Source of the DNA: Candidatus Woesearchaeota archaeon
Lineage (GTDB): Archaea > Nanobdellota > Nanobdellia > Pacearchaeales > JAHJTO01
Assembly (NCBI GenBank): GCA_964540065.1
Contig: CAZIKY010000001.1
Span: forward strand, 78,798 to 142,797
DNA: 64,000 bases
Reading direction: 5' to 3'
How positions within the stretch are numbered: the stretch's first letter is position 1; the number at the start of each line of letters is the position of its first letter. The position numbers and the translations under genes were made by a program. Positions 7,530 through 43,868 of this stretch are shown here, piece by piece. The notes under the pieces were generated by a model, which saw only the letters and a program-made list of their open reading frames with translations, was not told the DNA's origin and made no database searches.

Positions 7530-7553
7530 CCCAAAAATCACACTAATCCTATG

Positions 7554-7653
7554 CTCCCGTAGCTCAGCTTGGATAGAGCAATTGCCTTCTATTTCGAAGA
7601 AAATACCGAAGGAGCGAGCAATAGGTCGCAGGTTCAAATCCTGTCGGGAGCGT
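7554..7653 (+). tRNA. tRNA-Arg (anticodon TCT) with a 25-nt intron between positions 37 and 38
   Basis: Manual cloverleaf: acceptor GCTCCCG/CGGGAGC, D-stem GCTC/GAGC, anticodon stem ATTGC/GCAAT, loop CTTCTA|intron|A, T-arm GCAGG-TTCAAAT-CCTGT. Intron is tttcgaagaaaataccgaaggagcg. Mature length is 75 nt. Confidence 0.8.
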
Positions 7654-20996: not shown

Positions 20997-22502
20997 ATGG
21001 CCGATAAAAAAGAGGAAAGCAGAATAACTATCGAAGATATCTCTTCTTTCTGTAAAAGGAAGGGATTCGTCTTTCCTTCAAGCGAGATTTACGGGGGACT
21101 TGCAGGATTTTGGGATTTAGGCCCCTTGGGCGTAGAATTAATGAATAACTTAAAGAGAGAGTGGTGGAATTACTTTGTTCATCAAAAAGACAATATGGTT
21201 GGCCTTGATGCGAGCATAATCTCAAACCCTAAAATATGGAAAGCTTCCGGCCACGTGGCAAACTTCTCAGATGTTGCAGTTACATGCAAGAAATGTAAGA
21301 AAGCAAACAAAGTGGATAAAGCTGAACTCGCAAAAGCAAAATGTTCTTTCTGCGCAGGAGAGCTCGACAAGACAAGTGCAAAAAACCTCCAGCAGATGCT
21401 TACTACAAAGGTCGGCCCAGTAGAGCAGGATTCTACTACCTCTTACTTAAGGCCGGAAAACGCCCAAGGGATGTTCACAAACTTTAAGCTTGTTACCGAC
21501 ACATCAAGAGTGAAACTTCCATTCGGAATAGCTCAAATCGGAAAGTGTTTTAGGAACGAGATTGCTCCAAGAGATTTTTTATTCAGGTGCAGAGAGTTTA
21601 CAATAGCTGAGTTCGAATTCTTCATACACCCTAATGAAACAAAATGCCCTCTTCTGGATAAATCTCATGTTAATTTAAAAGTCCGGCTTCTTAACGCAGA
21701 AACACAAACAAAAGGGAAATCAGATTTAAAGGAAACCACAATAGGTAAGATGCTTCAGGAAAAGAGATTGGATGAATGGCATGCTTATTGGCTTGCAGAA
21801 CAAATTATGTTTTTTGATTCTATCGGAATAGATACAAATAGGATAAAAATCAGAGAGCACATGAAGGATGAACTTTCGCATTACTCCTCTGCAACATTCG
21901 ATCTCGATTACGAATTTCCTTTCGGAAGCTACGAGTTTGCAGGAAATGCCAACAGAGGACAATATGACCTCACAAACCATGCAAAAGAGAGCAATCAGAA
22001 ATTGGATTATTTTGATGAAGTCGGCAAATCCAGAGTCATTCCAAAGGTAATAGAGCCCACTTTTGGGATGGACAGGGTTTTCCTCGCCTCAATAGTTGAT
22101 GGATATGAATTCGATCATAAGAGAAACAACATTGTTTTAAAGATCCATCCAAGGCTTGCTCCAGTAAAGGCAGCAGTCTTCCCAATAATAAAAGATGAAA
22201 AGTATAATAAGATGGCTGAAGAGGTTGTTAACGATTTGAAAAAAGAGTTCCGAGTAGTTTATGATGAGTCTGGCAGTATCGGCAGAAGATATTCTAGAAA
22301 CGATGAGCAGGGCACGCCTTTCTGTATCACAGTCGATGAAGATTCTCCAAAAAAGAAAGACGTAACAATTCGTGATCGCGATAGCACCAAACAGATCCGA
22401 GTAAAGGTCAGGGATCTCAAAGAAACTATGCGAAAACTCCTAAACAAGGAGATAGATTTCTCAAAAGCAGGCAAGCTTGTTGAAACAAGGGTTAAAGAAT
22501 AA
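20997..22502 (+). CDS. glyS: Glycyl-tRNA synthetase (archaeal/eukaryal alpha2 type)
   Basis: 501 aa with class II motif 2 (FRNEIAPRDFLFRCREFTIAEFEFF) and a C-terminal anticodon-binding domain. Confidence 0.9.
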   Translation: MADKKEESRITIEDISSFCKRKGFVFPSSEIYGGLAGFWDLGPLGVELMNNLKREWWNYFVHQKDNMVGLDASIISNPKIWKASGHVANFSDVAVTCKKCKKANKVDKAELAKAKCSFCAGELDKTSAKNLQQMLTTKVGPVEQDSTTSYLRPENAQGMFTNFKLVTDTSRVKLPFGIAQIGKCFRNEIAPRDFLFRCREFTIAEFEFFIHPNETKCPLLDKSHVNLKVRLLNAETQTKGKSDLKETTIGKMLQEKRLDEWHAYWLAEQIMFFDSIGIDTNRIKIREHMKDELSHYSSATFDLDYEFPFGSYEFAGNANRGQYDLTNHAKESNQKLDYFDEVGKSRVIPKVIEPTFGMDRVFLASIVDGYEFDHKRNNIVLKIHPRLAPVKAAVFPIIKDEKYNKMAEEVVNDLKKEFRVVYDESGSIGRRYSRNDEQGTPFCITVDEDSPKKKDVTIRDRDSTKQIRVKVRDLKETMRKLLNKEIDFSKAGKLVETRVKE

Positions 22503-22504
22503 GC

Positions 22505-22512
22505 TTTAAAAT
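22505..22512 (+). promoter_or_regulatory. TATA-like box (TTTAAAAT) upstream of tRNA-Ala
   Basis: Starts 3 nt after the glyS stop and is centred about -27 relative to the tRNA. Confidence 0.35.
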
Positions 22513-22535
22513 AGGACCAAACTTCAGGAATTTAA

Positions 22536-22609: not shown

Positions 22610-23224
22610 TTAGTTTTCTAGCGCCTTGAGAAATTTCTTCTTATCCCTTCCCCGCACTTCTTTGCCCCATAAAACGAAAAGACGATTTATCTCAGACCAA
22701 TATTTCTTCGGAGCAATCTTCATCAGTTCTAATTCTGTTTGATGAGGAGTTTTGGTTTTAACCAAACCAAGAACATTGGACAAACGATGCACATGAGTAT
22801 CTACTGGGATCCCATCTTTTTTATGTACCTCTGTTAAAACGATGTTAGCAGTTTTCCTGCCAACTCCTGGAATTGCAACAAGTTTTTCCATATCATCAGG
22901 GACTTTCCCGTCATACTCTTCCACTATAAACTTTGCAGCAGCGATAACATGTTTTGTTTTGGTTTTGTTATAATTAATACTCTTAACAATTTTGAAAACA
23001 TCTTTATATTTTGCATTAGCAAGACTTTCAAGAGTAGGATATCTTTCAAACAGCTTTTCAGCAATAGGAATTGTTGTTTCATCCCTAGATTGCGCCGATA
23101 AAATGGTGGAAATCAATGTCTGCCAATCTGCTTCCCACTCTTCGGCAGCAAGCCTTTTTTCGCTTTCCCCATATTTCTTTTGAGCCTTTCTTAAGATCTT
23201 AAGAAAGTACTTCCTCTTATCCAT
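22610..23224 (-). CDS. HhH-GPD superfamily DNA glycosylase (endonuclease III-like, lacking the Fe-S cysteine cluster)
   Basis: 204 aa with LVAIPGVGRKTANIVL (helix-hairpin-helix with catalytic Lys) and VDTHVHRL (catalytic Asp). No C-terminal Cx6Cx2Cx5C. Confidence 0.7.
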   Translation of the reverse strand: MDKRKYFLKILRKAQKKYGESEKRLAAEEWEADWQTLISTILSAQSRDETTIPIAEKLFERYPTLESLANAKYKDVFKIVKSINYNKTKTKHVIAAAKFIVEEYDGKVPDDMEKLVAIPGVGRKTANIVLTEVHKKDGIPVDTHVHRLSNVLGLVKTKTPHQTELELMKIAPKKYWSEINRLFVLWGKEVRGRDKKKFLKALEN

Positions 23225-23236
23225 AATGTTTTAAAG

Positions 23237-23656
23237 TTGCTAGGATTTAATAATTCTATGAATGATTGTGTTTTTTGCAGGATAACCAAAGGAGATATTC
23301 CCTCATACAAAGTTTATGAAGATAAAGACTTCATGGCTTTTTTGGACATTCATCCGTTAAATCCCGGGCATACCCTGGTGGTTCCAAAAAAGCACGCTAA
23401 GACTGTAAACGATTACGAGCCCTTTGGGAAGTATTGGGAAGCTGCAAGGAAAGTCTCTAAAGCAGTTCAAAAAGCGCTAAACCCCATAGTTGTGATATAC
23501 ATTGTCTACGGATTGGATGTGCCCCATGCCCACATACATTTAATGCCAAGATACAAAGACGACGGCCATGAAGAAGGGCCAAACTTCAGAAAAGTGAAAG
23601 ATATTTCTAAGGAAGAGATGCAAGCAATCGCAGAGAAGATAAAAAAAGCCTTATAA
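23237..23656 (+). CDS. HIT-family (histidine triad) nucleotide hydrolase
   Basis: 139 aa with HAHIHLMP, matching the HxHxHxx HIT motif. Confidence 0.8.
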   Translation: MLGFNNSMNDCVFCRITKGDIPSYKVYEDKDFMAFLDIHPLNPGHTLVVPKKHAKTVNDYEPFGKYWEAARKVSKAVQKALNPIVVIYIVYGLDVPHAHIHLMPRYKDDGHEEGPNFRKVKDISKEEMQAIAEKIKKAL

Positions 23657-23657
23657 A
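23650..23657 (+). promoter_or_regulatory. TATA-like box (TTATAAAC) upstream of tRNA-Met
   Basis: Lies 30 nt upstream of the tRNA 5' end. The same octamer precedes tRNA-Leu and tRNA-Thr. Confidence 0.4.
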
Positions 23658-23679
23658 CCACCCCCTACTCCTAAAAATA

Positions 23680-23751
23680 CGCCTGTGTAGCTTAGTGGTA
23701 GAGCGCGAGTCTCATAAGCTCGAGGTCGTGGGTTCGACTCCCATCACAGGC
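23680..23751 (+). tRNA. tRNA-Met (anticodon CAT), elongator-type (G1:C72); tRNA-Ile2 (CAU) cannot be excluded
   Basis: Acceptor GCCTGTG/CACAGGC, D-stem GCTT/GAGC, anticodon stem CGAGT/GCTCG with loop CTCATAA, T-arm GTGGG-TTCGACT-CCCAT. Confidence 0.8.
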
Positions 23752-23757
23752 ATTAAA

Positions 23758-24204
23758 ATGAAGAAACTGATTCAAGTCCAGGCTATTCTCTACAGATTAA
23801 ATAAAAAAAGTTATGAATTCTTGGTACTTAAAAGAGTCCCAGAAAAAAAAGGTTTTTGGCAACCCATCACTGGAGGCAAAAAAGAAGGTGAAAGGATAAA
23901 GGATGCACTATACCGAGAGATTAATGAAGAAGCAGGAATAAAAGAGGAGGAGATATTAAACTCTAAAGAGGTTCATTCGTTCAACTGGTCAGCAAATGAT
24001 AGAGATAAGCCCGAAACAAAAATAAATTTTAAAGAATATGCTTTCGGGGTAGAAGTCAATTCAAAATCTAGAATTAGTTTGAGCAAGGAGCATGAAGAGT
24101 ATAAATGGATGCCATATGAGGAAGCACTTTCTCTAATTTATCATGAGACAAATAAAGAAAGTTTAAGAAGATTAAATAATTTATTAACAAATGGAAAACA
24201 ATAG
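23758..24204 (+). CDS. NUDIX hydrolase
   Basis: Nudix box GGKKEGERIKDALYREINEEAGI (Gx5Ex7REUxEExGU). The start is taken at the internal ATG at 23758 because the track ORF (from 23695) would overlap the tRNA. Confidence 0.8.
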   Translation: MKKLIQVQAILYRLNKKSYEFLVLKRVPEKKGFWQPITGGKKEGERIKDALYREINEEAGIKEEEILNSKEVHSFNWSANDRDKPETKINFKEYAFGVEVNSKSRISLSKEHEEYKWMPYEEALSLIYHETNKESLRRLNNLLTNGKQ

Positions 24205-24862
24205 GATAAGACTTTCTCCTTCTAAGCTAAACTTGTTCCTTGAGTGCCCACTTTGCTTTTGGATGGAAAATGTAGAGAAGATCCATCGGCCAAGAGGGAT
24301 TTTCCCAAGCCTTCCTTCAGGAATGGATTCTGTGCTGAAAAAATACTTTGATTCATTCAGAGAATCTGGAGAAATACCCCCGGAGATTGAGGGAAAAGTT
24401 GAGGGAGAACTCATGCAGGACCTGGAGCTTCTCAAAAAATGGACAAACAACCGAGTAGGAATCCAATTTGAAGATGAAGAATCTGGTGCTTTGTTGATGG
24501 GGGCGCTTGATGAATGCTTGGTCAATGGGGAAACATACATCCCTTTAGACTTCAAAACAAGAGGATTTGACCTCAAAGAAGACAGCACAGACTATTATCA
24601 AAACCAACTTGACACTTATTGCCTCCTTCTTGAAAAAAATGGCTTTAAACAGCCGGGCTTTGCATATTTGGTTTATTTCATTCCTGAAAAATATGAAGGC
24701 CAAGGAATTACAAAGTTCAAAATAGAAATTAAGAAGGTAAAAACTTCCCCGGAAAGAGCATTAAAGATTTTCAGAGAGGCAGTTAGACTCCTAAAATCTC
24801 AAAAACCTCAAGCCCATTCTAAATGCGAGTTTTGTTCTTGGCATTCTAGTTTTCACAATTGA
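24191..24862 (+). CDS. PD-(D/E)XK nuclease with four Cys (Cas4-like / RecB-family, DUF83-like)
   Basis: 223 aa. N-terminal SPSKLNLFLECPLCFW, motif II GALDEC, motif III IPLDFKTRG (ivDYKTG-like), a QNQLDTY motif (Q..Y) and C-terminal CEFC, giving 2+2 Cys. Confidence 0.6.
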   Translation: MENNRIRLSPSKLNLFLECPLCFWMENVEKIHRPRGIFPSLPSGMDSVLKKYFDSFRESGEIPPEIEGKVEGELMQDLELLKKWTNNRVGIQFEDEESGALLMGALDECLVNGETYIPLDFKTRGFDLKEDSTDYYQNQLDTYCLLLEKNGFKQPGFAYLVYFIPEKYEGQGITKFKIEIKKVKTSPERALKIFREAVRLLKSQKPQAHSKCEFCSWHSSFHN

Positions 24863-24904
24863 GCCATCAAAAAGCTTTTAAGGGAGCTTTTTTGAGGTAT
24901 TTGT

Positions 24905-25975
24905 ATGGTCAATGTTGGATTAGCGATTTGGGATGATCACGGAAAGAGGGATTTGGTCAAAGACCTCAGAAGCCTGATAGCAATAATTAAAAAAGAGCAG
25001 AGAAAAGTTAAAGGAAATAGCTGCAGAATAGATCTCCTATCAGGACTAGAGCTCCAGGTAGAAGGCAAGTATCAGGGTTCTTCAAATGGTGATGGAGCAA
25101 CATGGCCTTCATTAAGTTATGATCAAGATGATTTCTTAGGCCATTTCTTTAACAGGCTTAAGCTGCTCACAGTCCATGCGCCTTGCAGCGGGAAAAACAT
25201 AATCTCCACGAGCGAGTCTGAAAGGAAATGGAGCATAGAGGAAACGAAAAAGGCAATGGACTTCACGTATAAAATCGGGGGGAGTTCTCTTGTTCTTCAT
25301 CCGGGAAGTGTTAACTATTGGAGCGACTTGTCAAAACCAAGAAGGGAGCAAGACGAAGAGAGGTTTTACGATTCTTTTAGGGAGCTTGCAAGGCATTATT
25401 TTGAAAAGGGCTATAATCGCCCACATCTTCGCGGTAAAATGTCTTTGGGGATAGAAAATATGGATCCGCCGCATTTAATAATGACAAGAAAAGAGCACGA
25501 AAGAGTCTTCAAAAGGTGTCTGGAAATTATGGTTGAAGAAAGTAAAGGCCAAAGCAAGGAAGAAATATATGATGGCAGCCTAAAAATGAGGGTAGATTTC
25601 TCTCATTACTGGAATAGCCACATAACGTTAAAGGAAAATCCGGATAAAAACTTTGTTGAGGGATATGATGAAATCACTAAGGGAGATATAATTAATTATT
25701 TTGCTAATCTTATAAGGGATAACTATTCTGCAATAGAAGGTTTCCATATGGGGGGATGTTACAACAATTCCCAAAGAAGGTCAAGAATAACTCATGGGCC
25801 AATAATGCAGATATCCAGAGTATATGATTGGAATGAGTTAAACTTTGAAAAGGTCTTAAACCTCCCAGGAGTTCTTGAAAAAAATTTGATTTTAGAAGTT
25901 TTTGGAGTTGATTTTAAAACGTTGATTTTCTCGCACCAAAATGTTTTGGATTATGTGAGTCAAAGGGAAAGGTAA
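24905..25975 (+). CDS. Divergent xylose-isomerase-like TIM-barrel protein resembling endonuclease IV (AP endonuclease family 2)
   Basis: 356 aa with VHAPCSG (cf. HAPY), LVLHPGS (cf. HPGS), GIENMD (cf. ENtAG) and DFSHYWNSH (cf. DTCH), in the same order as in Nfo. Confidence 0.45.
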   Translation: MVNVGLAIWDDHGKRDLVKDLRSLIAIIKKEQRKVKGNSCRIDLLSGLELQVEGKYQGSSNGDGATWPSLSYDQDDFLGHFFNRLKLLTVHAPCSGKNIISTSESERKWSIEETKKAMDFTYKIGGSSLVLHPGSVNYWSDLSKPRREQDEERFYDSFRELARHYFEKGYNRPHLRGKMSLGIENMDPPHLIMTRKEHERVFKRCLEIMVEESKGQSKEEIYDGSLKMRVDFSHYWNSHITLKENPDKNFVEGYDEITKGDIINYFANLIRDNYSAIEGFHMGGCYNNSQRRSRITHGPIMQISRVYDWNELNFEKVLNLPGVLEKNLILEVFGVDFKTLIFSHQNVLDYVSQRER

Positions 25976-25976
25976 G

Positions 25977-27395
25977 ATGACTATTGCAGAAACAAGAAAT
26001 TATTACCGTGGAGAATCAGTAATCCATAGGATGTTAGAATTCTGCGGAGTAGACCATCAAAAAGCTATAAATTTCAGTGTTAACGGAGAAGCATTATCTC
26101 AATCAAAAGAGTTGCAAAAACTAATTTCCGCAGGAACATCTGAATTTTTAGTGGGATGGGGAGGCCAGCTCTTAAGAGAAAGAGGGAATGCTAAGCAAAG
26201 AGTCCGTAACTTCAGTTTAGGATGGATCTTAGATAAGGGATTAGATGCCCATAGATCTCTGTGGGACAAAGAAAATACTTTGGGAGTAATAGATGTGGAA
26301 TATTTTTCTGAGAGATATCCTGGAGAAGCTTTTGCAAGACAAGAAGATGTTTTCTGGAGAATGGAGCCATTTTATCAGTGTGTCAAAGATTTATTATTCT
26401 CTTACGGAATAAAACCTTTAACGGTGGCAACAGGGCAAGGATATCATTTTGATTTTAGAGTTTCAAAAAACAGTCCTGCACATAAGATGCTTGAAGAAAT
26501 TGCTTCTCCAGAGGGCACAATAATGGATAAATATCGCCATCTAAGCGGAGATGTATTCACTAGAAAGGTAAGTGAACAAGAAGGCAAGGGATTTGAAGGA
26601 ATAGGCAAAGCAATAGAATTTATTATCTATGAAGCCATAAGAAAGTCTCCAGAATACAAGGGCAATATTCCCCTATCAATCGGAGATATTCCTTCAAATA
26701 ATGAAAAAAGGGAGGGGATAAACATAGATCTCTCACTTTTATGCGGTCCATTGAACATGAGATCCGTAAGAATTCCTTTTTCAAGTTACCATAAGCATAA
26801 AGCTAGTCCCTGGAAAGTTGGAGAGCAAGTATCTAGGGAAATCCCTGTACAAATAACTCTCCCGCGGTACACCCCTTGCAACAACAATGAACTTCTTTTA
26901 TATGAGCTTTTCAATAACAGAAGACATTTCCACAATTCAGCAAATTATGCTGGAGCCGTAACAACCCAAATACCTGAAGTGAATGAGGGTATTGCAAATT
27001 TGATAAAGAGCTATAAAAAATCGGAGCTATTCAAATTTCATAAAGTGTTTGATTCAGAACAGCATGACTCTCCGGAGAGATGGCAGCATTCTTATGACAG
27101 ATATCACAGCAGAGATGCAAGGATCGAAAGTTTATTGAGAAATCCTGCTCCTGCATTGCTTGTTCCTGCAAACATCCAATATTTGACGAGAAGGTTAATG
27201 CATGAAGGATGGCATCCAAAACATATAGCCGGATTATTAAGGTCCAAATATGAAAGAGATCATGGATGGGCAGAAGAAAAAGGCGGAAATTGGGATTTTT
27301 ATAAAAGAGACGCAGCCACACATGCAAACAAATGGGTTAGATTTTACAGTGGACTTATCACCACAGGATTAGACTACCTAGTTACAAGAGGGTAA
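25977..27395 (+). CDS. Archaeo-eukaryotic primase (AEP) superfamily primase-polymerase-like protein
   Basis: 472 aa. Motif I VIDVEYF (DxE), then about 50 aa later motif II TGQGYHFDF (sGxGxH), then RIPFSSYHKHK (the RxPGSxNxK-like segment of PriS/PrimPol). Confidence 0.4.
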   Translation: MTIAETRNYYRGESVIHRMLEFCGVDHQKAINFSVNGEALSQSKELQKLISAGTSEFLVGWGGQLLRERGNAKQRVRNFSLGWILDKGLDAHRSLWDKENTLGVIDVEYFSERYPGEAFARQEDVFWRMEPFYQCVKDLLFSYGIKPLTVATGQGYHFDFRVSKNSPAHKMLEEIASPEGTIMDKYRHLSGDVFTRKVSEQEGKGFEGIGKAIEFIIYEAIRKSPEYKGNIPLSIGDIPSNNEKREGINIDLSLLCGPLNMRSVRIPFSSYHKHKASPWKVGEQVSREIPVQITLPRYTPCNNNELLLYELFNNRRHFHNSANYAGAVTTQIPEVNEGIANLIKSYKKSELFKFHKVFDSEQHDSPERWQHSYDRYHSRDARIESLLRNPAPALLVPANIQYLTRRLMHEGWHPKHIAGLLRSKYERDHGWAEEKGGNWDFYKRDAATHANKWVRFYSGLITTGLDYLVTRG

Positions 27396-27991: not shown

Positions 27992-28960
27992 TTAAAGCTT
28001 GCGTATAACAAATTTACCTTTGAGGTTCTCCGCGACTTCTTCCCCCTTTTTGCTGAGCTTGCCCTTGGTCAAAAACAAAACCGGGAGCTTCAAATCCGCC
28101 CCTTCCTGATAAATTAGGGCCACATCGCCTTCATTTATGGATTTCTTGTTCTTTCCAAACAAAAAGAAGTCCAGTTTGCCTATCCCTGATTCAACTTCCA
28201 CTATTGCCTTGAAGTCCTTCCCGCCTGCATCAACCTCCCTCTTCAGCGCAACTTTATTCTCTTCCATCCAAGATTTGACTTCATTATTAAAACTAGAAGG
28301 GGCAGGCGATTTTTTTCGAGGCTTTTTAAGAGTTTTTTCCAAATCTGGAACTCTCTCTTCTTCGTCTTCCTTAGAAAGTTCTTCCGAAGGCTTCTCTAAA
28401 ACTTCTTTTTCAGTTTCGGCCTTAAGTTCTTTTTCGGGAATTTTAGGCGATTCGAGGGCCGAAGATTTAACTGCGGGAGTTTGAGAGGGAGCTTCTTCAG
28501 TCAACAAAGATTTTATCTTCTTTCCCGCCTCTTCCGGCTGTAGTAGATGGAACCTCCAGAAAAGTTTCTCTTCTCCGGATTGGACAATTGTCATAGGCAT
28601 GGCAAAATCTTTCATATTCCTAAATGCAACTCTAATCGCTGGCTCGCACTTTTTATCCTCTGCCACCCCTTTCTCCTTCAAGATAGTATGAGCTTCTCTT
28701 TCTTTAAAATCAAGAAACTTAGTATATCCTTCAAGCTTCTCTTCCTGCCCTCTGACAAAATATAGCGGGCTTCCTCCGACTTTGAGATTGCTGGACAAAA
28801 TAACCTTTTCCCTTAAAAGCTCTGAAAGCAGAGCCGAGGCAAGAAAGCTGTTTAAATTCAAAGTTTTTGAGATAGCATGGGCAACAAGCGGCCCGTTATT
28901 TTTGACATAGTCTGCAATCCTGCTTTTCTGCTCGGCAACATTTACCTTAAATCCTTCCAT
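27992..28960 (-). CDS. Hypothetical protein with an N-terminal winged-helix-like domain and an acidic/Lys-rich linker
   Basis: 322 aa with no Cys and no catalytic motif. The central region is low-complexity E/K/S-rich. Confidence 0.3.
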   Translation of the reverse strand: MEGFKVNVAEQKSRIADYVKNNGPLVAHAISKTLNLNSFLASALLSELLREKVILSSNLKVGGSPLYFVRGQEEKLEGYTKFLDFKEREAHTILKEKGVAEDKKCEPAIRVAFRNMKDFAMPMTIVQSGEEKLFWRFHLLQPEEAGKKIKSLLTEEAPSQTPAVKSSALESPKIPEKELKAETEKEVLEKPSEELSKEDEEERVPDLEKTLKKPRKKSPAPSSFNNEVKSWMEENKVALKREVDAGGKDFKAIVEVESGIGKLDFFLFGKNKKSINEGDVALIYQEGADLKLPVLFLTKGKLSKKGEEVAENLKGKFVIRKL

Positions 28961-29018: not shown

Positions 29019-29588
29019 TTAAGGCCTAAGCCATCTCGCTTCATAATAGGTAACATCTCCTTCGTCATCAACAACTGCAATAAGAAGATTCTTTTTAGTT
29101 GAATGCGCAACCCTGTTTTTGGCGGCAAACTCATGCCAGGTAAGGCTTGAACTTTCATGCACTGGGAAAACAATCCATTTGGCGTGTTCCTCCCCCATCT
29201 TTACACCTTTCTCATAAACCCTGAAATCTGCTCCAAACTTCAAGGCAGTCTTGACAAGATATCCTCTGCCCCTCAGATCTGCAAAAACCAGGTACCTAGT
29301 CATAAAACCTGAATCTGCCTTGCTTACTTCCTTCAAAAAAGATTCTGAGGATAATTTCTTTCCGCCTTTAAAAATTTCCATCTTGCCTTTCTGGATAAGA
29401 TAAAAAGATTCAACAAGTGAGTAGTTCACTTTCCCTTCAATCATCTCCCCAAATCTGCTTTTGCTGTATAGATTTACAGCTTCAGAAGAATTGCTTATCA
29501 CTTTTTCTGCAGAGAAGGCTGCCTTAATCTTCTTCCCCTGAAGCTTTTCTTGAGATTCTAAAGATTTGGTTTTCTTGGTTTTTGCCAT
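29019..29588 (-). CDS. endA: tRNA-splicing endonuclease (homotetramer-type catalytic subunit)
   Basis: 189 aa. FADLRGRGYLVKTALKFGADFRVYE and downstream His match the EndA catalytic domain. The size fits alpha4-type EndA. Confidence 0.85.
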   Translation of the reverse strand: MAKTKKTKSLESQEKLQGKKIKAAFSAEKVISNSSEAVNLYSKSRFGEMIEGKVNYSLVESFYLIQKGKMEIFKGGKKLSSESFLKEVSKADSGFMTRYLVFADLRGRGYLVKTALKFGADFRVYEKGVKMGEEHAKWIVFPVHESSSLTWHEFAAKNRVAHSTKKNLLIAVVDDEGDVTYYEARWLRP

Positions 29589-29638: not shown

Positions 29639-30535
29639 ATGGAGATAACATTTCTAGGAACCTCATTTGCAATACCTACAAAAAGAAGAAACCACACAGC
29701 TATCCTATTGACAAATGAAGGGGAGAACATCCTCGTAGACTGTGGAGAAGGCACGCAAAGGCAATTTAGAAAGGCGGGTTTGAACCCCTGCAAGATAACC
29801 AAGCTGCTTATCACACATTGGCATGGAGATCACGTTTTCGGAATAATGGGCCTCCTCAGAACTTTGGCATTAAGCGGATACAGCAAAACTTTGCATATTT
29901 ATGGCCCAAAAGGCACATCCTATAAAATGGAAAAGATAATCGACACATTCATAAAAGAAGTTGAGATTGGCCTAGAAGTCCATGAAATCAGCAGCGATGG
30001 ACAGATTTACGATGGAGAAGTTGTTATAAACGCTTACAAAATGGATCATGGAATCCCATGTGTTGCCTATACAATAGAGCAAAAAACAAAGGTTAAAATG
30101 GATGTAGCCAAACTAAAGAAGCTCGGAGTCCAGGGCCCGCTTGTTGGAGAGCTCCAAAGAGGAAAAGATATAACTTACGAAGGCAAGAAAATAAAGTCAA
30201 AAGATGTAACTTTCCTCCAAAAGGGCAAGAAAGTGGCTTTCGTCTTAGATACTAAGCTTAACGATAACTGCGTAAAAGCTGCAAAGGATGCGGATGTTTT
30301 GATATGTGAAGCAACATACTTGGAAGAAGACAAAGAAAAGGCTGAAGAGAACAAACACCTTACTTCAGCCCAAGGCGGAGAAATTGCGAAGAAAGCCAAA
30401 GCAAAAGCGCTTTACCTAACGCACATAAGTCAAAGATATGAAACAAGAGAAGACCAAATTGTTAAAGAAGCGAGAAACAAATTCAAGAATTCTTTTATCG
30501 CTCAGGATTTGATGAGGGTAGAGGTTAAAGAATAA
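29639..30535 (+). CDS. rnz: Ribonuclease Z (tRNA 3' endonuclease), short form
   Basis: 298 aa metallo-beta-lactamase fold with HWHGDH (HxHxDH) and downstream His/Asp ligands. Confidence 0.85.
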   Translation: MEITFLGTSFAIPTKRRNHTAILLTNEGENILVDCGEGTQRQFRKAGLNPCKITKLLITHWHGDHVFGIMGLLRTLALSGYSKTLHIYGPKGTSYKMEKIIDTFIKEVEIGLEVHEISSDGQIYDGEVVINAYKMDHGIPCVAYTIEQKTKVKMDVAKLKKLGVQGPLVGELQRGKDITYEGKKIKSKDVTFLQKGKKVAFVLDTKLNDNCVKAAKDADVLICEATYLEEDKEKAEENKHLTSAQGGEIAKKAKAKALYLTHISQRYETREDQIVKEARNKFKNSFIAQDLMRVEVKE

Positions 30536-30555
30536 TATTAACAATTAGGCCAAAC

Positions 30556-31503
30556 TTAAGCTGTAGCTTTCATGCCTGCCTTCTTTTCAGCTTCCTTGAT
30601 CTTCATCTTTTCTTCAAGGCCAAGCTTATCAAGAAGTTCTTTGTATCTGTTTCTGATTGTAACTTCAGTTATTCCTGCAACATCTGCGACTTCTCTTTGA
30701 GTTCTTTTCTCAAGGTTCAAAAGAGCTGCAACGTAAAGTGCCGCAGCGGCGATTCCTGCTGGACCTCTTCCGCTAGTCAATTCAGAAATCTCTGCTTTCT
30801 TAAGAATTTTAAGCGCGTCATTTTGAGTTTTTGGGGATAAATGAAGCACTGAAGCGAATCTTGAGATGTAATCTTTGGGATTGCTTGCAGAAACAGTCAA
30901 ATTAAGTTTCCGCGTTATAAACCTATAAGTTCTTCCGATCTCTTTTCTTTCAACTTCAGATGTCGCTGCGATCTCATCAAGAGTTCTTGGAATGTTATAA
31001 GTTCTGCAGGCAGCATAGATGCACGCAGAGATTACAGATTCCATGCTTCTCCCGCGGACTAGTCCCCTCTGAAGAACGACATTGTACATTCTGCTTGCCT
31101 CTTCTTTAACAACATTAGGTAAATTGAGATAGCTTGCAACTTTTCTAAGCTCAGTCATAGCAAGCCTTAAGTTCCTTTCAATGCTTGTGGAAACCCTTTC
31201 CTGCCACTTCTTAAGTCTGCTGTATTTCTTTATTCTCTTCTCTCCAAGACGGTAAATATCAGAAATCTCTCCTATGTTTGTGGTAAGGCCTTTATCGAAT
31301 TTCTGCATAGAAAGCGGCGCTCCGCCTCTTCCTTTCTTAGGCCCCTCGTCAAACTGCCTCCATTCTTGCCCAAGATCGACCATTTCCTTCTCGATAACCA
31401 GGCCGCACTGCCCGCACATGGTTTCCCCACGCTGCTCATCAAAGATCATCTTGCTAGAATTACATTCCGGGCACTTTTTAACAGAAGCCGTCGACATACT
31501 CAA
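30556..31503 (-). CDS. tfb: Transcription initiation factor TFIIB (TFB)
   Basis: 315 aa. N-terminal Zn ribbon (CPECNSS ... CGQCGL), B-finger/linker and two cyclin repeats. Confidence 0.9.
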   Translation of the reverse strand: MSMSTASVKKCPECNSSKMIFDEQRGETMCGQCGLVIEKEMVDLGQEWRQFDEGPKKGRGGAPLSMQKFDKGLTTNIGEISDIYRLGEKRIKKYSRLKKWQERVSTSIERNLRLAMTELRKVASYLNLPNVVKEEASRMYNVVLQRGLVRGRSMESVISACIYAACRTYNIPRTLDEIAATSEVERKEIGRTYRFITRKLNLTVSASNPKDYISRFASVLHLSPKTQNDALKILKKAEISELTSGRGPAGIAAAALYVAALLNLEKRTQREVADVAGITEVTIRNRYKELLDKLGLEEKMKIKEAEKKAGMKATA

Positions 31504-34529: not shown

Positions 34530-35156
34530 ATGATGAGATCCCTCGGAAGGTTATCTCTTGCAATTCTAACTGCTAGCTACGTTACTCTCTCTAATCCTTT
34601 AGAGATTTCAGCAGAAACTAAAGGTGCCGATAAGGGTAAAAAAGAGATCAAATACTTCAGGGGAAAATCAGATTATGATCCTGCAAAGGTAAAAGCTGAA
34701 AGGAAGAAACGGGCACAGGAAGATAAACAATATAGAGAAGTTGTCTTTGAAACATTCAAAGATTATGTCTCAACACTAATCGCCAAAGAATTCGGAGTAA
34801 TCCCTTATTTCTTTGCACCAAAATATTTTTCGAGATGGAAAGGGAAAATGGTTGACCTCAACCCAGAGGAGATAAAGGGCAACTTGAATAAAGCCCTAAG
34901 TGTCAAAGATTTCAGCAGAGTAAAACTCGAAGAATTGATTATTGGAGATGACCCGAATAATCAAGAGAGATTTAAGATAAGGAAACTGTCTGAATTCAGG
35001 AAAGAGTTTAGAGAAAGAGGGTACAAAGAGAAAATACTTTCAAATGACTATCTTGTAATCACAGACTTAAACAAGGAATTGCCTATTCAATCAAAAACTT
35101 TCTTCAGATGCGAAAAGGGTGATACCCGTTGTAAGATTATCGGTGTTTCTTATTAA
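34530..35156 (+). CDS. Secreted hypothetical protein
   Basis: 208 aa. N-terminal signal-like segment (LSLAILTASYVTLSNPLEISAE), then a highly charged K/E-rich body. Confidence 0.35.
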   Translation: MMRSLGRLSLAILTASYVTLSNPLEISAETKGADKGKKEIKYFRGKSDYDPAKVKAERKKRAQEDKQYREVVFETFKDYVSTLIAKEFGVIPYFFAPKYFSRWKGKMVDLNPEEIKGNLNKALSVKDFSRVKLEELIIGDDPNNQERFKIRKLSEFRKEFRERGYKEKILSNDYLVITDLNKELPIQSKTFFRCEKGDTRCKIIGVSY

Positions 35157-38100
35157 GCTACTTCTAGGCATAACCGGCTTCCAGAGTTATATTCACAATT
35201 TAGCTTTGCTACACTCGTGCATGCTTCATTCGTGCAAGCAGAAGGATTACCGTCAAATTCACTACATGAAGGGGCGGAGGCACATGAGCTGCAGCTCCCA
35301 AAAGAGTCTTCAAAAGGCCATATTTCTGGCTTGTAATAACATGAAGTGTAAGAAAGTTCATTCCCTTTTATCTCAAGGGCGATGTTGCCGCAGTTATTTC
35401 TTGTGCAAAGAGAAGTTACTCCCTTCCCACATTCTCCACAGCTTGAAGGATTATTTTTCTTAAAATTTTCAAACTCTTGAGCTTCAACTGCACTTAAGGT
35501 GATATTTATTCTTTTTCCGGGAGCAAGGCTTGCACTTTCCAAATTATTTTCCCTTATTATCTGCTGTACTTTAGATCTCGCCCGGTCATCAAGTTGAGAT
35601 TCATAACCATAAATCTTTCCTAGAGTATTCAAGACAAAATCTGCTAAAAGCTCTGTTCTAGAAACAGTATAATAAATTGTCTGCGGGGATCCCCAAGAAG
35701 TTATCTGGCCCCTCGTAGTTTGCTCTCCAGAAAAGACTATTCCATCTTGGGAATCTGCTACAGCAGATTCTTGACAAAGTCGGTAATTCTCCAGAATATC
35801 ATTAGTGTAAGAAACTACATTAGTTCCAAGATCATCTGCAAGTCTTCTTCCCCTAACCATGAATTGAGAAGAGCTTGTAGTCCTAATCACATTTTCAAGA
35901 TCACTCCAGGTATTAACTTTATAAAATTTTATGGCCCCTTCTAAATTTGGCCCCCCAACAAGATATTCTGCAAGTGCAAAACTTACTGGTTGATCTTTTC
36001 TCCGATGTTTATTATGGACACTTATTAGATGAGATAATCCTGCACGGATATTTGTTCTTGGGTCTTTAAGATCATCCGGATCAGTTATCTGTGGAGCAGG
36101 ACCATTTCTGCCAAATAAGATTTGCATAAGGCCTATAGCATTAGAAACAGAAACAGCATTAGGATTGCCACCAGACTCTCTCAAGATCAAGGCTTTTACA
36201 AGAGTATGTGTCTCGTATTCGCTATACCTTTCACTTGCGCCAATTTCAGCCATAACTTCCCTAATCAACTCACCATATTGGCTTTCAACATTGCTACATT
36301 TTAGTTTTTTGTTCCCTGCAGATTGCCCAGTGCCAGTCACTGTTTCAGTTGGTGCAGGCAAAGTTCTCAGCTCAGTAACAATCAATTTGTAGATCTCAAC
36401 GATTTTTATTCTAGACAATGCCTTATATCGGTTAGAGATGCTCGATTCTGCCACCCTATTAAACTCTGAGAATGCTCTGCTAGCCCTCAACGCCTCTGAG
36501 ATATCCTGGTCAATTACTGCTGATTCTTTTCTAGAGGTCTTTCCTTCACTTATTATCTTTTTCAGCTGCCTCAAAAGATTGTCAAGCTCTTCTTTTCTGT
36601 CGCCAGTAGTTAGTTTGCTGTAAATATCCCTGCTTTCCTGCTCAGTTACGATCTTCCCTTCCTGAGTCAAAAGATTAATGCTTTGATTCCTCGACTCTTC
36701 CAAAGTTAGATTTCTAAGTCCAAGATCCCTTATTGCATTGCTGACAGTATTTCTGTCCAGCCAGCAGCCAATCCTGCCGTCAGGATCACAGAATCCAACT
36801 TTATCCCATCTGTTAGGATCACTTCTCAAACCGGGATTATCTCCAGAGCAGATCCTTACAATTCCTCTCCTGTAAATTTCTGGCTGGACTGCCTCTCCAA
36901 TGCCTCCGACCCCTGGCTGAGCCAAAACTGGAAGGAGTGCTTCCGGCAAAGACTCTGCAGCAAGAAGAGTAGATTTTCCAGCAGTGCATTCATCTTCAGT
37001 CTTTATCTGATAATCTGGAACAGTCTGAGACGCAACATAATAATCTGTAATCTCTTGCACTCCAAATCCGGTTGTCGCTTTCTTAAATCCGCAATAATCT
37101 TTTAAGTTTACCCTTACACAAAGCTGCTTATATCCGCTAGGCAAAATTACATCCCGAGTTATATCTGCTGATTCTCCGATGGGGGTGTATCCTGTCTGTA
37201 TGATTGCCCTTTCAGGAATATTTATTGTGGGAACAAATGCTGGCTCCGCAAGATAAACGGTCCAGTAAGCCGGCTCATCTCTTCCGGCAAAGATATGCCA
37301 GAATACTTTGTATTGAGAGCTTTGAGGGACAGTAACTGATGAAAAGGGAATTTCATCAAACCAGGCATTTATTTGAACGGGAGACTCCGGTCTTGCAAGC
37401 TCATCGAACAGATTTGCAGAATCAGGATACCTTAAACCAATAAATGCCTTGCATAAGAAGCTTCCTGCTTCAGCAGTCGATCTGACTTGGAATGCCCTTA
37501 ACGCGTTTGCACCATAATAATTTGTAAAGAATTGTACTTGCTGGACGCTGTTTTCATAAGCGCTTGCAAATGTCATATATTCTCCGCCTCCGCCGCGGCC
37601 ATAGACTGTTCTTTCAACTAAATTGGGGATTCCAACTTTGAGTAAAGGTGTTAATTCTTTCCAGAAAAACTCGCAAAGATATACGCTTTTAAGCTGGTCG
37701 CATATTCCGACATTTCTTCCAGTCTCCAAATTTTCCTGAAGGCACCTTCTAACGTCTTTCAAAACACTCACTAAATTATCCAAACCTGCATGGACTCCAG
37801 TTAAACAAACTGGGACAGCAACTCCTCCTTTCTCTCCTCCGAGTATTCCTGGAACCCCTGCATTGGGCAGACACAATGCCAAACTCCCAACAATTCCTGT
37901 CTGCACAACATTATCTGTAGGGAATCTTCCTCCGAAGTCGCATCTGCTTGGAGGGCATAAAACTGGATCGCATAAGTTGTAAAGGAGATTACATCTTTCT
38001 GGAGACATGACATCTTCACATTCAATTCCGGGAGAAGTAGCCTTAGCTTGGCCAACCGGAACAGTTATTCCACATGAAGGAAGTGAAATTGGCTGTCCAA

Positions 38101-43720: not shown

Positions 43721-43796
43721 TTTCCCTCTTTTAAGCTCATTTAAAGAGGAAAAAGTGATATATAAAGGTTGTTCAATAATCTCGAAGAAAAATAAA

Positions 43797-43868
43797 TGAC
43801 CCCAGGAGGAGTCGAACCTCCATTTGGTCCACGTCAAGGACCCGTCATAGCCGCTAGACCATGGGGTC
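43797..43868 (-). tRNA. tRNA-Val (anticodon GAC)
   Basis: Minus-strand cloverleaf: acceptor GACCCCA/TGGGGTC, anticodon stem GGTCC/GGACC with loop TTGACGT, T-arm GGAGG-TTCGACT-CCTCC. A TTTAAAAC box lies about 30 nt upstream at 43897..43904. Confidence 0.8.

What the first reader, a model, noticed from the sequence alone, without database searches (positions are those of the whole stretch)
22610..27395. DNA end-processing/repair island: HhH-GPD glycosylase and HIT, tRNA-Met, then Nudix / Cas4-like nuclease / EndoIV-like / AEP primase-polymerase-like operon
On one side of tRNA-Met sit a lyase-type HhH-GPD glycosylase without an Fe-S cluster and a HIT hydrolase. On the other side four co-oriented, overlapping genes encode a Nudix hydrolase, an Fe-S PD-(D/E)XK (Cas4-like) exonuclease, a divergent endonuclease-IV-like TIM barrel and an AEP-superfamily primase-polymerase-like protein (stop/start overlaps 24191/24204 and 25975/25977). 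Together these cover base removal, AP-site or 3'-end cleaning, 5' resection, gap synthesis, and pool or adenylate sanitation. That points to a self-contained excision or end-repair module. Alternatively it is the replication-repair core of a degraded integrated element, given the tRNA adjacency and the primase-polymerase.
Basis: partly seen in the sequence, partly recalled or inferred. Interest (0 to 1): 0.8.

Follow-up and report, generated by a model that had tools for sequence, protein, structure and literature searches.

The report
Conserved primase-polymerase and EndoIV-like enzyme pair
Only the last two genes of the proposed six-gene "repair island" form a conserved unit: an unannotated primase-polymerase-type enzyme paired with, and sometimes fused to, an endonuclease-IV-like metal enzyme in many uncultured bacteria and archaea, probably a small machine that cleans and re-extends damaged nucleic-acid ends.

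Summary
All the ORFs and tRNA-Met exist as described, and every family call holds at superfamily level.

**The 356-aa protein.** It is a xylose-isomerase-like TIM barrel of the MJ1311 subfamily. It keeps 8 of endonuclease IV's 9 metal ligands. Relatives and fusion proteins keep all 9.

**The island is not conserved.**
- In 87 related loci, none has an Nth-like, Nudix or Cas4-like gene; two have a HIT gene.
- None has a ligase.
- There is no att repeat, no compositional anomaly, and no homologue in viral, plasmid or phage collections.

**The TIM–AEP pair is conserved.**
- It is adjacent and co-oriented in 46 of 87 loci, across many bacterial phyla and several archaeal lineages.
- It is fused into one polypeptide in two clusters.

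**Best reading.** This is a cellular two-enzyme module: 3′-end or AP-site cleaning by the barrel, then extension or priming by the AEP. It is analogous to LigD's Pol and PE domains, or to EndoIV with Prim-PolC. The substrate (DNA or RNA) is unproven.

It is a new AEP family with a new partner, and moderately to highly interesting.

The parts
24905..25975 (+). Core part 1: a 356-aa xylose-isomerase-like TIM barrel of the MJ1311 subfamily with an EndoIV-type metal-ligand set. Ligand residues and first codon positions: H91 (25175), H132 (25298), E184 (25454), D231 (25595), H234 (25604), H281 (25745), H297 (25793), E331 (25895). The position equivalent to Nfo D229 is I295.
25977..27395 (+). Core part 2: a 472-aa member of a previously unannotated AEP (archaeo-eukaryotic primase) superfamily family. 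It has a catalytic core plus a C-terminal helical domain.
26292..26300 (+). AEP motif I: D106-V-E108, in VIDVEY. These are metal-binding acidic residues.
   Evidence: Invariant in about 104 family members.
26430..26447 (+). AEP motif II: T152-G-Q-G-Y-H157, of the sGxGxH type (nucleotide binding).
   Evidence: G153 and G155 are invariant in a 9-sequence alignment (only G155 in the 48-sequence one). The His is N or S in about 8 of 104 members.
26727..26729 (+). AEP motif III: D251, in NIDLS. It is followed by the invariant R262, R265 and K273.
26982..27362 (+). C-terminal all-helical domain (about residues 336-462) carrying the invariant WHPKHIAGL motif. In about 90% of homologues it holds four Cys in a 1+3 arrangement. 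The window copy lacks all four.
24191..24862 (+). Context only, not conserved with the pair: a Cas4-like PD-(D/E)XK nuclease with D-F-K and QLDTY motifs and CxxC...CxxC cysteines.
   Evidence: PDDEXK_1 3e-12; Cas4 TIGR00372 25.9 bits, below its cut-off of 65. PADLOC Cas4 7e-10; phrog_31195 2e-48. Absent from 87 related loci.
23758..24204 (+). Context only: a Nudix hydrolase of 148 aa, starting 5 nt after tRNA-Met.
   Evidence: Pfam NUDIX 3e-15. The best NCBIfam hit, NudB-type, is below its cut-off. Nudix box. Absent from related loci.
23681..23752 (+). tRNA-Met (CAT).
   Evidence: ARAGORN. Rfam 73.3 bits. No att-like repeat of its 3' end.
23237..23656 (+). Context only: a HIT-family hydrolase (motif HAHIH).
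   Evidence: Pfam HIT 8e-20. A HIT homologue lies within 8 kb of the AEP gene in only 2 of 87 related loci.
22610..23224 (-). Context only: an endonuclease-III-like HhH-GPD glycosylase/lyase with no cysteines, hence no Fe-S cluster.
   Evidence: HhH-GPD 1e-23. TIGR01083 nth 175.8 bits, below its cut-off of 211.7. The Lys in GVGRKTA, the Asp in VDTH, and zero Cys. Absent from related loci.

Best explanation
The real unit is a two-gene module at 24905-27395 in an ordinary archaeal (DPANN-like) chromosome. The Nth-like, HIT, Nudix and Cas4-like genes are genome-specific neighbours.

**Gene 1.** A TIM-barrel metallo-enzyme of the MJ1311 subfamily. Its active site carries the His/His/Glu/Asp-x-x-His/His/(Asp-x-)His/Glu ligand set that in endonuclease IV holds a trinuclear metal centre for phosphoester hydrolysis.

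**Gene 2.** A new family of AEP-superfamily nucleotidyltransferases. The catalytic triad and nucleotide-binding motif are intact. The core is most like the bacterial repair Prim-Pols (Prim-PolC, LigD-Pol). It is followed by a helical domain that in most members carries four cysteines, probably an Fe-S cluster of PriL-CTD type.

**Proposed mechanism.**
1. Shown: the two proteins are a functional unit. They are adjacent and co-oriented in about half of all loci, in either gene order, across bacteria and archaea, and they are fused in some.
2. Inferred: they form a complex. The barrel hydrolyses blocked 3' ends or abasic sites to leave a 3'-OH.
3. Inferred: the AEP then extends that end or primes next to it. 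A host ligase encoded elsewhere seals the nick.

Functionally this parallels LigD's phosphoesterase and polymerase domains, and the EndoIV + Prim-PolC + LigC base-excision pathway.

In this particular genome the pair is probably co-transcribed with the Nudix and Cas4-like genes downstream of tRNA-Met. That is inferred from the spacings: 5 nt, a 14-nt overlap, 42 nt and 1 nt.
For: **AEP identity**
- Model pLDDT 95, pTM 0.94.
- D106, E108, D251, R262, R265 and K273 are invariant in about 104 members, including tandem paralogues.

**TIM identity**
- Pfam AP_endonuc_2.
- Profile hit to MJ1311 at 1e-26 over full length, EndoIV at 3e-8.
- Nine invariant residues. They align with Nfo H109, E145, D179, H182, H216 and E261, and with the first His (HAP motif) of M. 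tuberculosis EndoIV.
- The D-x-H motif is kept in short-type partners and in the fusions.

**Coupling**
- A same-strand adjacent TIM in 46 of 87 loci, in both gene orders.
- Natural fusions P0110 (747 aa) and P0124 (724 aa), whose TIM domain has 9 of 9 ligands.
- 1-nt spacing in the window.

**Cellular, not mobile**
- No PHROG or PADLOC hit.
- No homologue in 2.9 million viral contigs, 72,556 plasmids or 50,697 phages.
- Other recurring neighbours annotated are housekeeping genes.

**Precedent**
- EndoIV cleans the 3' end before Prim-PolC gap filling in a reconstituted BER pathway (PMC5663958).
- MJ1311 has been listed as the EndoIV homologue of M. jannaschii (PMC2770678).
Against: - No biochemical data exist for either family.
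- By sequence, ketose 3-epimerases (2.6e-10) score slightly better than EndoIV (3e-8).
- From memory, and not checkable here: the MJ1311 structure paper (Uechi et al. 2014) reported the nine EndoIV ligands conserved but no DNA-binding groove.
- The window-type barrel has lost the Nfo-D229-equivalent ligand (I295). Its H297 loop is modelled with low confidence.
- About half of the loci lack an adjacent barrel. They show tandem AEP paralogues or a DUF374-AEP-LpoB arrangement instead.
- No ligase, Ku or other repair gene is a recurrent neighbour.
- CbiR shows that this superfamily can hydrolyse phosphodiesters that are not DNA.
- One member carries an N-terminal CBS pair, a domain more typical of metabolic enzymes.
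- The window copy of the AEP lacks the four Cys found in about 90% of the family.
Confidence: 0.55

Rival explanations
1. All six genes (Nth-like glycosylase, HIT, Nudix, Cas4-like nuclease, TIM barrel, AEP) form one self-contained excision and end-repair pathway: base removal, 3' cleaning, 5' resection, gap synthesis and sanitation of the nucleotide pool or adenylates.
For: - All six family assignments hold.
- The four downstream genes are tightly packed and co-oriented, so probably co-transcribed in this genome.
- An Nth-type lyase produces exactly the 3'-blocked ends that an EndoIV-like enzyme removes. This follows from established BER biochemistry and PMC5663958.
Against: - None of 87 related loci has an Nth-like, Nudix or Cas4-like gene within about 8 kb of the AEP. 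HIT appears twice.
- The closest relative, whose TIM is 70% identical, has VTT/DedA upstream instead.
- Nth-like and HIT lie on the other side of a tRNA gene, and Nth-like is on the opposite strand.
- The clustering therefore rests on a single genome.
Confidence: 0.12
2. The TIM-AEP module does not work on DNA damage. It acts on RNA (for example tRNA or RNA 3'-end healing and resynthesis) or on another nucleotide-containing phosphodiester. The barrel would act as a phosphodiesterase or phosphatase on that substrate.
For: - The AEP-TIM-HisRS-AspRS arrangement recurs in about 16 loci, down to 44-55% AEP identity.
- The window's neighbourhood is rich in tRNA genes, aminoacyl-tRNA synthetases, the tRNA-splicing endonuclease and RNase Z. 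RNase Z also sits next to the gene in L009.
- There is a CBS-AEP fusion.
- CbiR is a precedent for a substrate that is not DNA.
- From memory: MJ1311 reportedly lacks a DNA-binding groove.
- Glycosyltransferase and other cell-envelope genes neighbour the pair in several loci.
Against: - To my knowledge, every characterised AEP polymerises nucleic acid on a DNA template.
- The closest structural relatives are DNA-repair Prim-Pols.
- The HisRS-AspRS synteny is confined to one clade.
- The tRNA-related neighbours are ordinary housekeeping genes of compact genomes.
Confidence: 0.2
3. The 472-aa protein is simply this DPANN archaeon's replicative primase: a monomeric PriS-PriL fusion like NEQ395 of Nanoarchaeum equitans.
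For: - Many DPANN archaea use a monomeric PriS-PriL fusion with a [4Fe-4S] cluster whose ligands have a 1+3 arrangement (PMC10250227).
- This family likewise combines an AEP core with a helical domain holding 1+3 Cys, and it has weak PriL-CTD and photolyase similarity.
- No other PriS or PriL was seen among the window ORFs scanned with Pfam.
Against: - Most members are bacterial, and by general knowledge bacteria use DnaG.
- Members also occur in Methanosarcinales and Korarchaeota, which by general knowledge have canonical PriS and PriL.
- Only 2 of the 80 best loci are labelled DPANN.
- There is no Pfam PriS or PriL match.
- The window copy has lost the Cys cluster.
- 64 kb is too little sequence to expect the true primase gene to be in view.
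Confidence: 0.08
4. The region is the replication and repair core of a degraded element integrated at tRNA-Met.
For: It lies next to a tRNA gene, and it contains a primase-polymerase and a Cas4-like nuclease whose best match is a viral PHROG (2e-48).
Against: - No direct repeat of the tRNA-Met 3' end anywhere in the window.
- No integrase.
- GC 0.37-0.39, the same as the surroundings.
- Alba, S17e, the tRNA-splicing endonuclease, RNase Z, TFB and GlyRS flank the region.
- The AEP family is absent from viral contigs, plasmids and phages. Relatives sit in housekeeping contexts.
Confidence: 0.03

Closest known systems
Prim-PolC / LigC base-excision repair complex of mycobacteria, working with EndoIV
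   Different: - 14% sequence identity, with no sequence-level detection.
- No ligase is encoded nearby.
- The partner here is a dedicated, sometimes fused, MJ1311-type barrel, not the housekeeping Nfo.
- This family has an extra C-terminal helical four-Cys domain. To my knowledge Prim-PolC lacks one.
LigD (polymerase + phosphoesterase + ligase) of bacterial NHEJ
   Different: - By general knowledge, the LigD phosphoesterase domain has a different fold from the TIM barrel here.
- No ligase domain and no Ku neighbour.
- Found in archaea and in many anaerobic bacterial phyla, in housekeeping contexts.
MJ1311 (PDB 3wqo), an uncharacterised 'D-tagatose 3-epimerase-like' protein of M. jannaschii
   Different: MJ1311's function is unknown. 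To my knowledge it has no AEP partner. The window-type barrel is about 70 aa longer because of insertions, and lacks the Asp of the D-x-H motif.
Endonuclease IV (E. coli Nfo and orthologues)
   Different: - No match to any endonuclease IV model in NCBIfam.
- The profile E-value to EndoIV is only 3e-8 to 9e-4.
- The window copy has 8 of 9 ligands.
- The DNA-recognition loops have not been shown to be present.
Monomeric PriS-PriL primases (NEQ395 of N. equitans; PolpTN2)
   Different: - No Pfam PriS or PriL match.
- Mostly bacterial and chromosomal.
- Paired with a phosphoesterase-type barrel.
CbiR, the cobamide-remodelling phosphodiesterase
   Same: An AP_endonuc_2 barrel with conserved His, Asp and Glu metal ligands, whose function was inferred from gene context. 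It gives a weak NCBIfam hit (0.0033).
   Different: CbiR sits in cobamide operons and cleaves a cofactor. No cobamide genes lie near the pair.

Membership tests
AEP (archaeo-eukaryotic primase) superfamily | AEP catalytic fold | tested here: met
AEP (archaeo-eukaryotic primase) superfamily | Motif I (DxD or DxE), motif II (sGxGxH) and motif III (hD) present and conserved | tested here: met
   D106-x-E108, 152-TGQGYH-157 and D251. The acidic residues are invariant in about 104 members. The motif II His is replaced by N or S in about 8.
AEP (archaeo-eukaryotic primase) superfamily | Membership of an already described AEP sequence family (Pfam, NCBIfam, PHROGs or PDB) | tested here: not met
   No hit in Pfam, NCBIfam, PHROGs, PADLOC or PDB sequences, with either the single sequence or the family profile. 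It is therefore a new family at sequence level.
LigD-Pol / Prim-PolC (NHEJ/BER Prim-Pol) family | Genomic or physical association with an ATP-dependent ligase (LigD or LigC) and/or Ku | tested here: not met
   No recurrent ligase or Ku neighbour in 87 loci. A scan for ligase motifs I and III was negative. Singleton neighbours were not all annotated.
LigD-Pol / Prim-PolC (NHEJ/BER Prim-Pol) family | 5'-phosphate-binding pocket and gap-filling activity | not testable with these tools
   This needs model coordinates with DNA, or biochemistry.
Endonuclease IV (Nfo) family | TIM barrel of the AP_endonuc_2 superfamily | tested here: met
Endonuclease IV (Nfo) family | Nine ligands of the trinuclear metal centre: H69, H109, E145, D179, H182, H216, D229, H231, E261. 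The residue list is from memory. Six of the nine coincide with the invariant columns of the alignment. | tested here: inconclusive
   The window protein has 8 of 9 (the D229 equivalent is I295). Short-type partners and the fusions have 9 of 9. MJ1311, whose function is unknown, has the same set, so the ligands do not prove nuclease activity.
Endonuclease IV (Nfo) family | Recognition by curated endonuclease IV models, with EndoIV as the closest relative | tested here: not met
   No match to any endonuclease IV model in NCBIfam at E <= 0.1. In the profile search MJ1311 (1e-26) and ketose epimerases (2.6e-10) rank above EndoIV (3e-8).
Endonuclease IV (Nfo) family | DNA-binding groove and recognition loops; AP-endonuclease or 3'-diesterase activity | not testable with these tools
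   The tools return no coordinates. From memory, the MJ1311 crystal structure was reported to lack the groove.
MJ1311-like subfamily of AP_endonuc_2 | Full-length, highly significant profile match with shared ligand positions | tested here: met
PriL-CTD-like Fe-S domain (C-terminal domain of the AEP family) | Helical fold similar to PriL-CTD or photolyase, plus four cluster-binding Cys | tested here: inconclusive
Cas4 | PD-(D/E)XK motifs and QxxxY; 1+3 Cys Fe-S pattern; curated model score | tested here: inconclusive
   D-F-K and QLDTY are present. PDDEXK_1 is above its cut-off. TIGR00372 scores 25.9, below its cut-off of 65. PADLOC Cas4 7e-10. The Cys pattern is CxxC...CxxC, not canonical. 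The window was not scanned for a CRISPR array or cas genes.
Endonuclease III (Nth) | HhH-GPD with catalytic Lys and Asp, plus a C-terminal [4Fe-4S] loop | tested here: not met
   The HhH-GPD domain and the Lys and Asp are present. There are zero Cys, and TIGR01083 scores 175.8, below its cut-off of 211.7. It is an Nth-like glycosylase/lyase without the cluster.
tRNA-integrated mobile element | att repeat of the tRNA 3' end, an integrase, atypical composition | tested here: not met
   and 77-79.

The most novel reading that the evidence does not exclude
The pair is a previously unrecognised cellular nucleic-acid repair or restart machine. It belongs to no mobile element and is widespread in anaerobic, uncultured bacteria and archaea.

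It would consist of an Fe-S-containing AEP with the domain logic of a complete monomeric primase (catalytic core plus a PriL-CTD-like domain), obligately coupled to, and sometimes fused with, an EndoIV-type trinuclear-metal phosphoesterase. Such a machine could clean a blocked 3' end and then either extend it or prime de novo beside it, without Ku or a dedicated ligase.

It would also be an exception to the published generalisation that PriL-type domains accompany replicative primases while MGE-encoded AEPs carry PriCT domains (PMC5862659).
Probability: 0.3. Interest if true: 0.85.

Novelty: new variant of a known kind. Interest (0 to 1): 0.65.

Why it matters
AEP enzymes in bacteria are known either as NHEJ/BER polymerases tied to ligases and Ku, or as replicases of mobile elements. 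This family fits neither description.

- It is sizeable: at least 683 clusters at 50% identity, and at least 374 species-level genomes.
- It is invisible to Pfam, NCBIfam, PHROGs and PADLOC.
- It is chromosomal.
- Its partner is an EndoIV-like barrel.

If the proposed function holds, three things follow:
- It would define a new minimal end-healing and synthesis pathway in lineages that are mostly uncultured, including genome-reduced DPANN archaea.
- It would give the long-uncharacterised MJ1311 subfamily a functional context.
- It would provide a compact Rosetta-stone pair (the fusion proteins) that can be tested directly in vitro.

For annotation, it turns hundreds of 'hypothetical protein' and 'sugar phosphate isomerase/epimerase' calls into a specific, testable prediction.

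Tried and rejected
1. **Integrated element at tRNA-Met.** Searched for repeats of the tRNA 3' end with a generic direct-repeat finder and with 25-nt and 17-nt patterns allowing up to 3 mismatches. Only the tRNA itself was found. GC content is flat. Rejected.
2. **Conservation of the whole island.** Ran phmmer with the Nth-like, HIT, Nudix and Cas4-like proteins against all ORFs of 87 loci. Only two weak HIT hits. Rejected.
3. **Sequence-level link of the AEP family to known structures.** Tried the single sequence and a 48-sequence profile against PDB sequences. Nothing.
4. **Phage or defence origin.** PHROGs, PADLOC, viral contigs, plasmids and phages were all negative for the AEP and the TIM barrel.
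5. **Ligase or Ku partner.** Neighbour clustering, Pfam on recurrent clusters, and a ligase-motif regex found none.
7. **The last word-indexed homologue search with the TIM profile.** It returned only 11 proteins, so the TIM model rests on a shallow alignment of 10 sequences.
8. **The MJ1311 structure paper.** It could not be retrieved. Its content is quoted from memory only.
9. **The 38-nt repeat at 22490 and 30523.** This is a trivial coincidence: both copies span gene ends that encode ...VKE*.
10. **Organism name.** The sources give no name or accession.
11. **A canonical PriS or PriL in the window.** None among the 29 window ORFs scanned with Pfam. This is uninformative for a 64-kb window.

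Full report
**Observation**

The ORF listing and ARAGORN give the following:
- A 204-aa ORF on the minus strand (22610-23224).
- A 139-aa ORF (23237-23656).
- tRNA-Met(CAT) at 23681-23752.
- Four co-oriented ORFs ending at 24204, 24862, 25975 and 27395.

Pfam and NCBIfam assign HhH-GPD (1e-23), HIT (8e-20), NUDIX (3e-15), PDDEXK_1 (3e-12, with weak Cas4 matches) and AP_endonuc_2 (5e-11, partial). The 472-aa protein gets nothing.

The endonuclease III model scores 175.8 bits against the Nth-like protein, below its 211.7 cut-off. That protein keeps the Lys of GVGRKTA and the Asp of VDTH but has no cysteine at all. 'Lyase-type without Fe-S' is therefore right.

Small corrections:
- The Nudix gene starts at ATG 23758, 5 nt after the tRNA. 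It does not start at the GTG inside the tRNA.
- 25975/25977 is an abutment with a 1-nt spacer, not an overlap.
- The Cas4-like protein's cysteines are CxxC...CxxC, not the canonical Cas4 pattern.

**The 472-aa protein is an AEP, and a new family**

It has 86 word-indexed homologues, all unnamed or labelled 'hypothetical'. An exhaustive profile search finds 683 clusters at 50% identity, 321 of them at E <= 1e-30. A pattern scan finds relatives in 374 species-representative genomes. All 80 loci listed are MAGs. They come from Elusimicrobia, 'Clostridia', Planctomycetes, Verrucomicrobia, Thermodesulfobacteriota, the PVC group and Hydrogenedentota, and from Micrarchaeota, Woesearchaeota and Methanosarcinales. 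A Korarchaeota member appears.

Neither the sequence nor a 48-sequence profile hits any PDB sequence. PHROGs and PADLOC are also negative.

- Then CAPP, the S-2L PrimPol, RepB', pRN1, human PrimPol and the poxvirus and herpesvirus primases. The top 21 hits are all AEPs.

Foldseek independently lists AEPs first.

The alignment shows the three AEP motifs: VIDVEY (D106, E108), TGQGYH (152-157) and NIDLS (D251). D106, E108, D251, R262, R265, K273, H355, H413 and H416 are essentially invariant across about 104 members. The enzyme is therefore predicted to be catalytically competent.

**The C-terminal domain**

Residues of about 336-462 form an all-helical domain with an invariant WHPKHIAGL motif. 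About 90% of members carry four Cys: one after the position equivalent to residue 382, and three in a C-terminal tail. The window protein has R at the first position and ends before the other three. The Alba gene's stop lies 16 nt downstream, so this is a genuinely short form and not a frameshift.

The monomeric DPANN primase NEQ395 has [4Fe-4S] ligands in a similar 1+3 arrangement (PMC10250227). Kazlauskas et al. relate the PriCT, PriX and PriL Fe-S domains to one another (PMC5862659). I regard a PriL-CTD-like Fe-S domain as plausible but unproven.

**The 356-aa protein**

A profile of 22 partner barrels hits the uncharacterised MJ1311 (3wqo) at 1e-26 over its full length. That is well ahead of ketose 3-epimerases (2.6e-10), TTHB071 (3.5e-10) and EndoIV (3e-8 for M. 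tuberculosis, 9e-4 for E. coli).

Nine residues are invariant: E49, H91, H132, E184, D231, H234, H281, H297 and E331. Aligned with E. coli Nfo, fetched from MG1655, the invariant columns fall on Nfo H109, E145, D179, H182, H216 and E261. The first His pairs with the HAP motif of M. tuberculosis EndoIV in the HMM alignment. Short-type partners and the fusion proteins also keep the D-x-H motif (Nfo D229/H231). The window type keeps only the His, with I295 in place of the Asp. So the ligand set is of EndoIV type: 8 of 9 here and 9 of 9 in relatives.

MJ1311 was listed as the EndoIV homologue of M. jannaschii (PMC2770678). From memory only, its structure paper noted the nine EndoIV ligands but no DNA-binding groove. 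CbiR shows that the superfamily also hydrolyses phosphodiesters that are not DNA.

I therefore call the protein 'EndoIV-like metallo-phosphoesterase, MJ1311 subfamily', and do not call it Nfo.

**What is conserved**

I called ORFs in 87 loci and searched them with family HMMs. A same-strand barrel of this subfamily abuts the AEP gene in 46 of them. The architectures are:
- (a) TIM (about 390 aa) followed by AEP. This is the window's type. It occurs in a Woesearchaeote, Methanosarcinales, Thermodesulfobacteriota, Desulfonatronospira and Wallbacteria.
- (b) AEP, TIM (about 285 aa), HisRS, AspRS. This occurs in one Elusimicrobia/'Clostridia' clade and persists down to 44-55% AEP identity.
- (c) AEP followed by TIM, in Planctomycetes and Verrucomicrobia.
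- (d) DUF374, AEP, LpoB, TPR protein, with no barrel.
- (e) Tandem AEP paralogues, both catalytically intact. In the archaeal pairs the second copy has no Cys.

Two clusters, P0110 (747 aa) and P0124 (724 aa), are AEP-TIM fusions whose barrel has all nine ligands. One member, P0175, has an N-terminal CBS pair.

Other recurrent neighbours annotated are housekeeping or cell-envelope genes, and some recurrent clusters had no Pfam match. No ligase candidate was found.

None of the window's other four 'island' genes recurs, apart from two background-level HIT hits. The nearest relatives illustrate this. L090, whose TIM is 70% identical, reads VTT/DedA, TIM, AEP. In L088 and L089 (TIM 44% identical) the barrel has no AEP beside it.

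**Not a mobile element**
- No repeat of the tRNA-Met 3' end.
- GC 0.37-0.39, like the rest of the window.
- The flanks are GlyRS, Alba, S17e, the tRNA-splicing endonuclease, RNase Z and TFB. The wider window holds AlaRS, LeuRS, SRP54, FtsY and RNR.
- The AEP family is absent from 2.9 million viral contigs, 72,556 plasmids and 50,697 phage records.

**Mechanism**
- Shown: both proteins carry complete catalytic inventories of their superfamilies. They are linked by adjacency in both gene orders across domains of life, and by fusion.
- Inferred: they act as a complex on nucleic acid. The barrel hydrolyses 3'-blocking groups or abasic sites. The AEP extends the resulting 3'-OH or primes next to it. 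Ligation is left to a host ligase.
- Precedents: LigD (a phosphoesterase and an AEP polymerase in one protein), and the reconstituted FPG, EndoIV, Prim-PolC, LigC pathway (PMC5663958).

If the barrel lacks a DNA-binding groove of its own, as I recall for MJ1311, then tight coupling to a DNA-binding AEP would make sense.

In this genome an Nth-type lyase, which makes 3'-blocked ends, happens to lie 1.7 kb away. That fits the proposal, but it is a single case.

**Rivals**
- A substrate that is RNA or otherwise not DNA remains open (0.2).
- The 'replicative DPANN primase' reading is unlikely (0.08). The family is mostly bacterial, also occurs in Methanosarcinales and Korarchaeota, is rare among DPANN-labelled loci, and is structurally closer to repair Prim-Pols than to PriS.
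- The six-gene pathway reading survives only as a genome-specific possibility (0.12).
- The integrated-element reading is essentially refuted (0.03).

**Novelty and verdict**

I found no paper describing an AEP family partnered with an AP_endonuc_2 barrel. No curated library recognises the AEP.

This is a new AEP family with a new kind of partner, so a new variant of a known kind: an AEP-based end-processing and synthesis system.

Interest is 0.65.

Noticed in passing
window 7553-7652 (+): Rfam finds a 100-nt tRNA (58.3 bits) that ARAGORN did not report. It is presumably an intron-containing tRNA, which fits an archaeal genome that encodes a tRNA-splicing endonuclease at 29019-29588.
   Followed up: no
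window 23752-23758: Only 5 nt separate the 3' end of tRNA-Met from the Nudix ATG. The four downstream genes are spaced by a 14-nt overlap, 42 nt and 1 nt. The tRNA and the four protein genes may be one transcript that needs tRNA processing. A TATA-like CTAAAAATA lies just upstream of the tRNA.
   Followed up: partly
window 25977-27395; L009, L010, L012, L014: The window's AEP lacks all four Cys that about 90% of the family conserves. The same loss is seen in the shorter second copy (440-448 aa) of the tandem AEP paralogues in Woesearchaeota and Methanosarcinales loci. Cluster-free forms therefore arose more than once.
   Followed up: partly
L019, L024, L034-L036, L048, L053-L055, L069, L070 (bacteria); L009, L010, L012, L014 (archaea): Tandem AEP-AEP paralogue pairs, both with intact catalytic residues. 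Except in L014 they have no adjacent TIM barrel. They may form a heteromeric enzyme. Unexplained.
   Followed up: partly
P0175 (612 aa): A family member with an N-terminal CBS-domain pair (Pfam 3.5e-23) fused to the AEP. This hints at regulation by an adenosyl ligand.
   Followed up: no
L017, L026, L028, L038, L039, L042-L044, L052, L056, L059-L062, L064, L065: An operon-like AEP-TIM-HisRS-AspRS arrangement, with 20-50-nt gaps in the one locus checked (L052). About 14 of these 16 loci carry both synthetase genes. It persists in members sharing only 44-55% AEP identity. Several of these loci also have heptosyltransferase or GT1 genes upstream.
   Followed up: partly
window 24191-24862 (+): The Cas4-like nuclease matches a viral family of unknown function over its full length (phrog_31195, 2.3e-48). 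That is much stronger than its match to Cas4 models. Its cysteines are CxxC...CxxC.
   Followed up: no
window 27992-28960 (-): A 322-aa protein between the S17e and tRNA-splicing-endonuclease genes. It has no Pfam match and a Glu/Lys-rich central region.
   Followed up: no
window 59389-62700 (+): The large subunit of ribonucleotide reductase is interrupted by an intein with a LAGLIDADG homing-endonuclease domain.
   Followed up: no
window 35153-41839 (-) and 41858-43837 (-): A giant 2228-aa ORF, which I did not scan, followed by a 659-aa ORF with no Pfam match.
   Followed up: no
L088 / L089 9031-10086: In these relatives (TIM 44% identical) the TIM gene is followed by a protein with a hydrophobic N-terminal stretch and an HExxH motif, not by an AEP. 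A MazE/PIN toxin-antitoxin pair lies nearby. The barrel subfamily therefore also exists without the AEP.
   Followed up: partly
window 22490-22527 and 30523-30560: A 38-nt direct repeat (79% identity) at the 3' ends of the GlyRS and RNase Z genes. Both proteins end in ...VKE*. It is most likely coincidence.
   Followed up: yes
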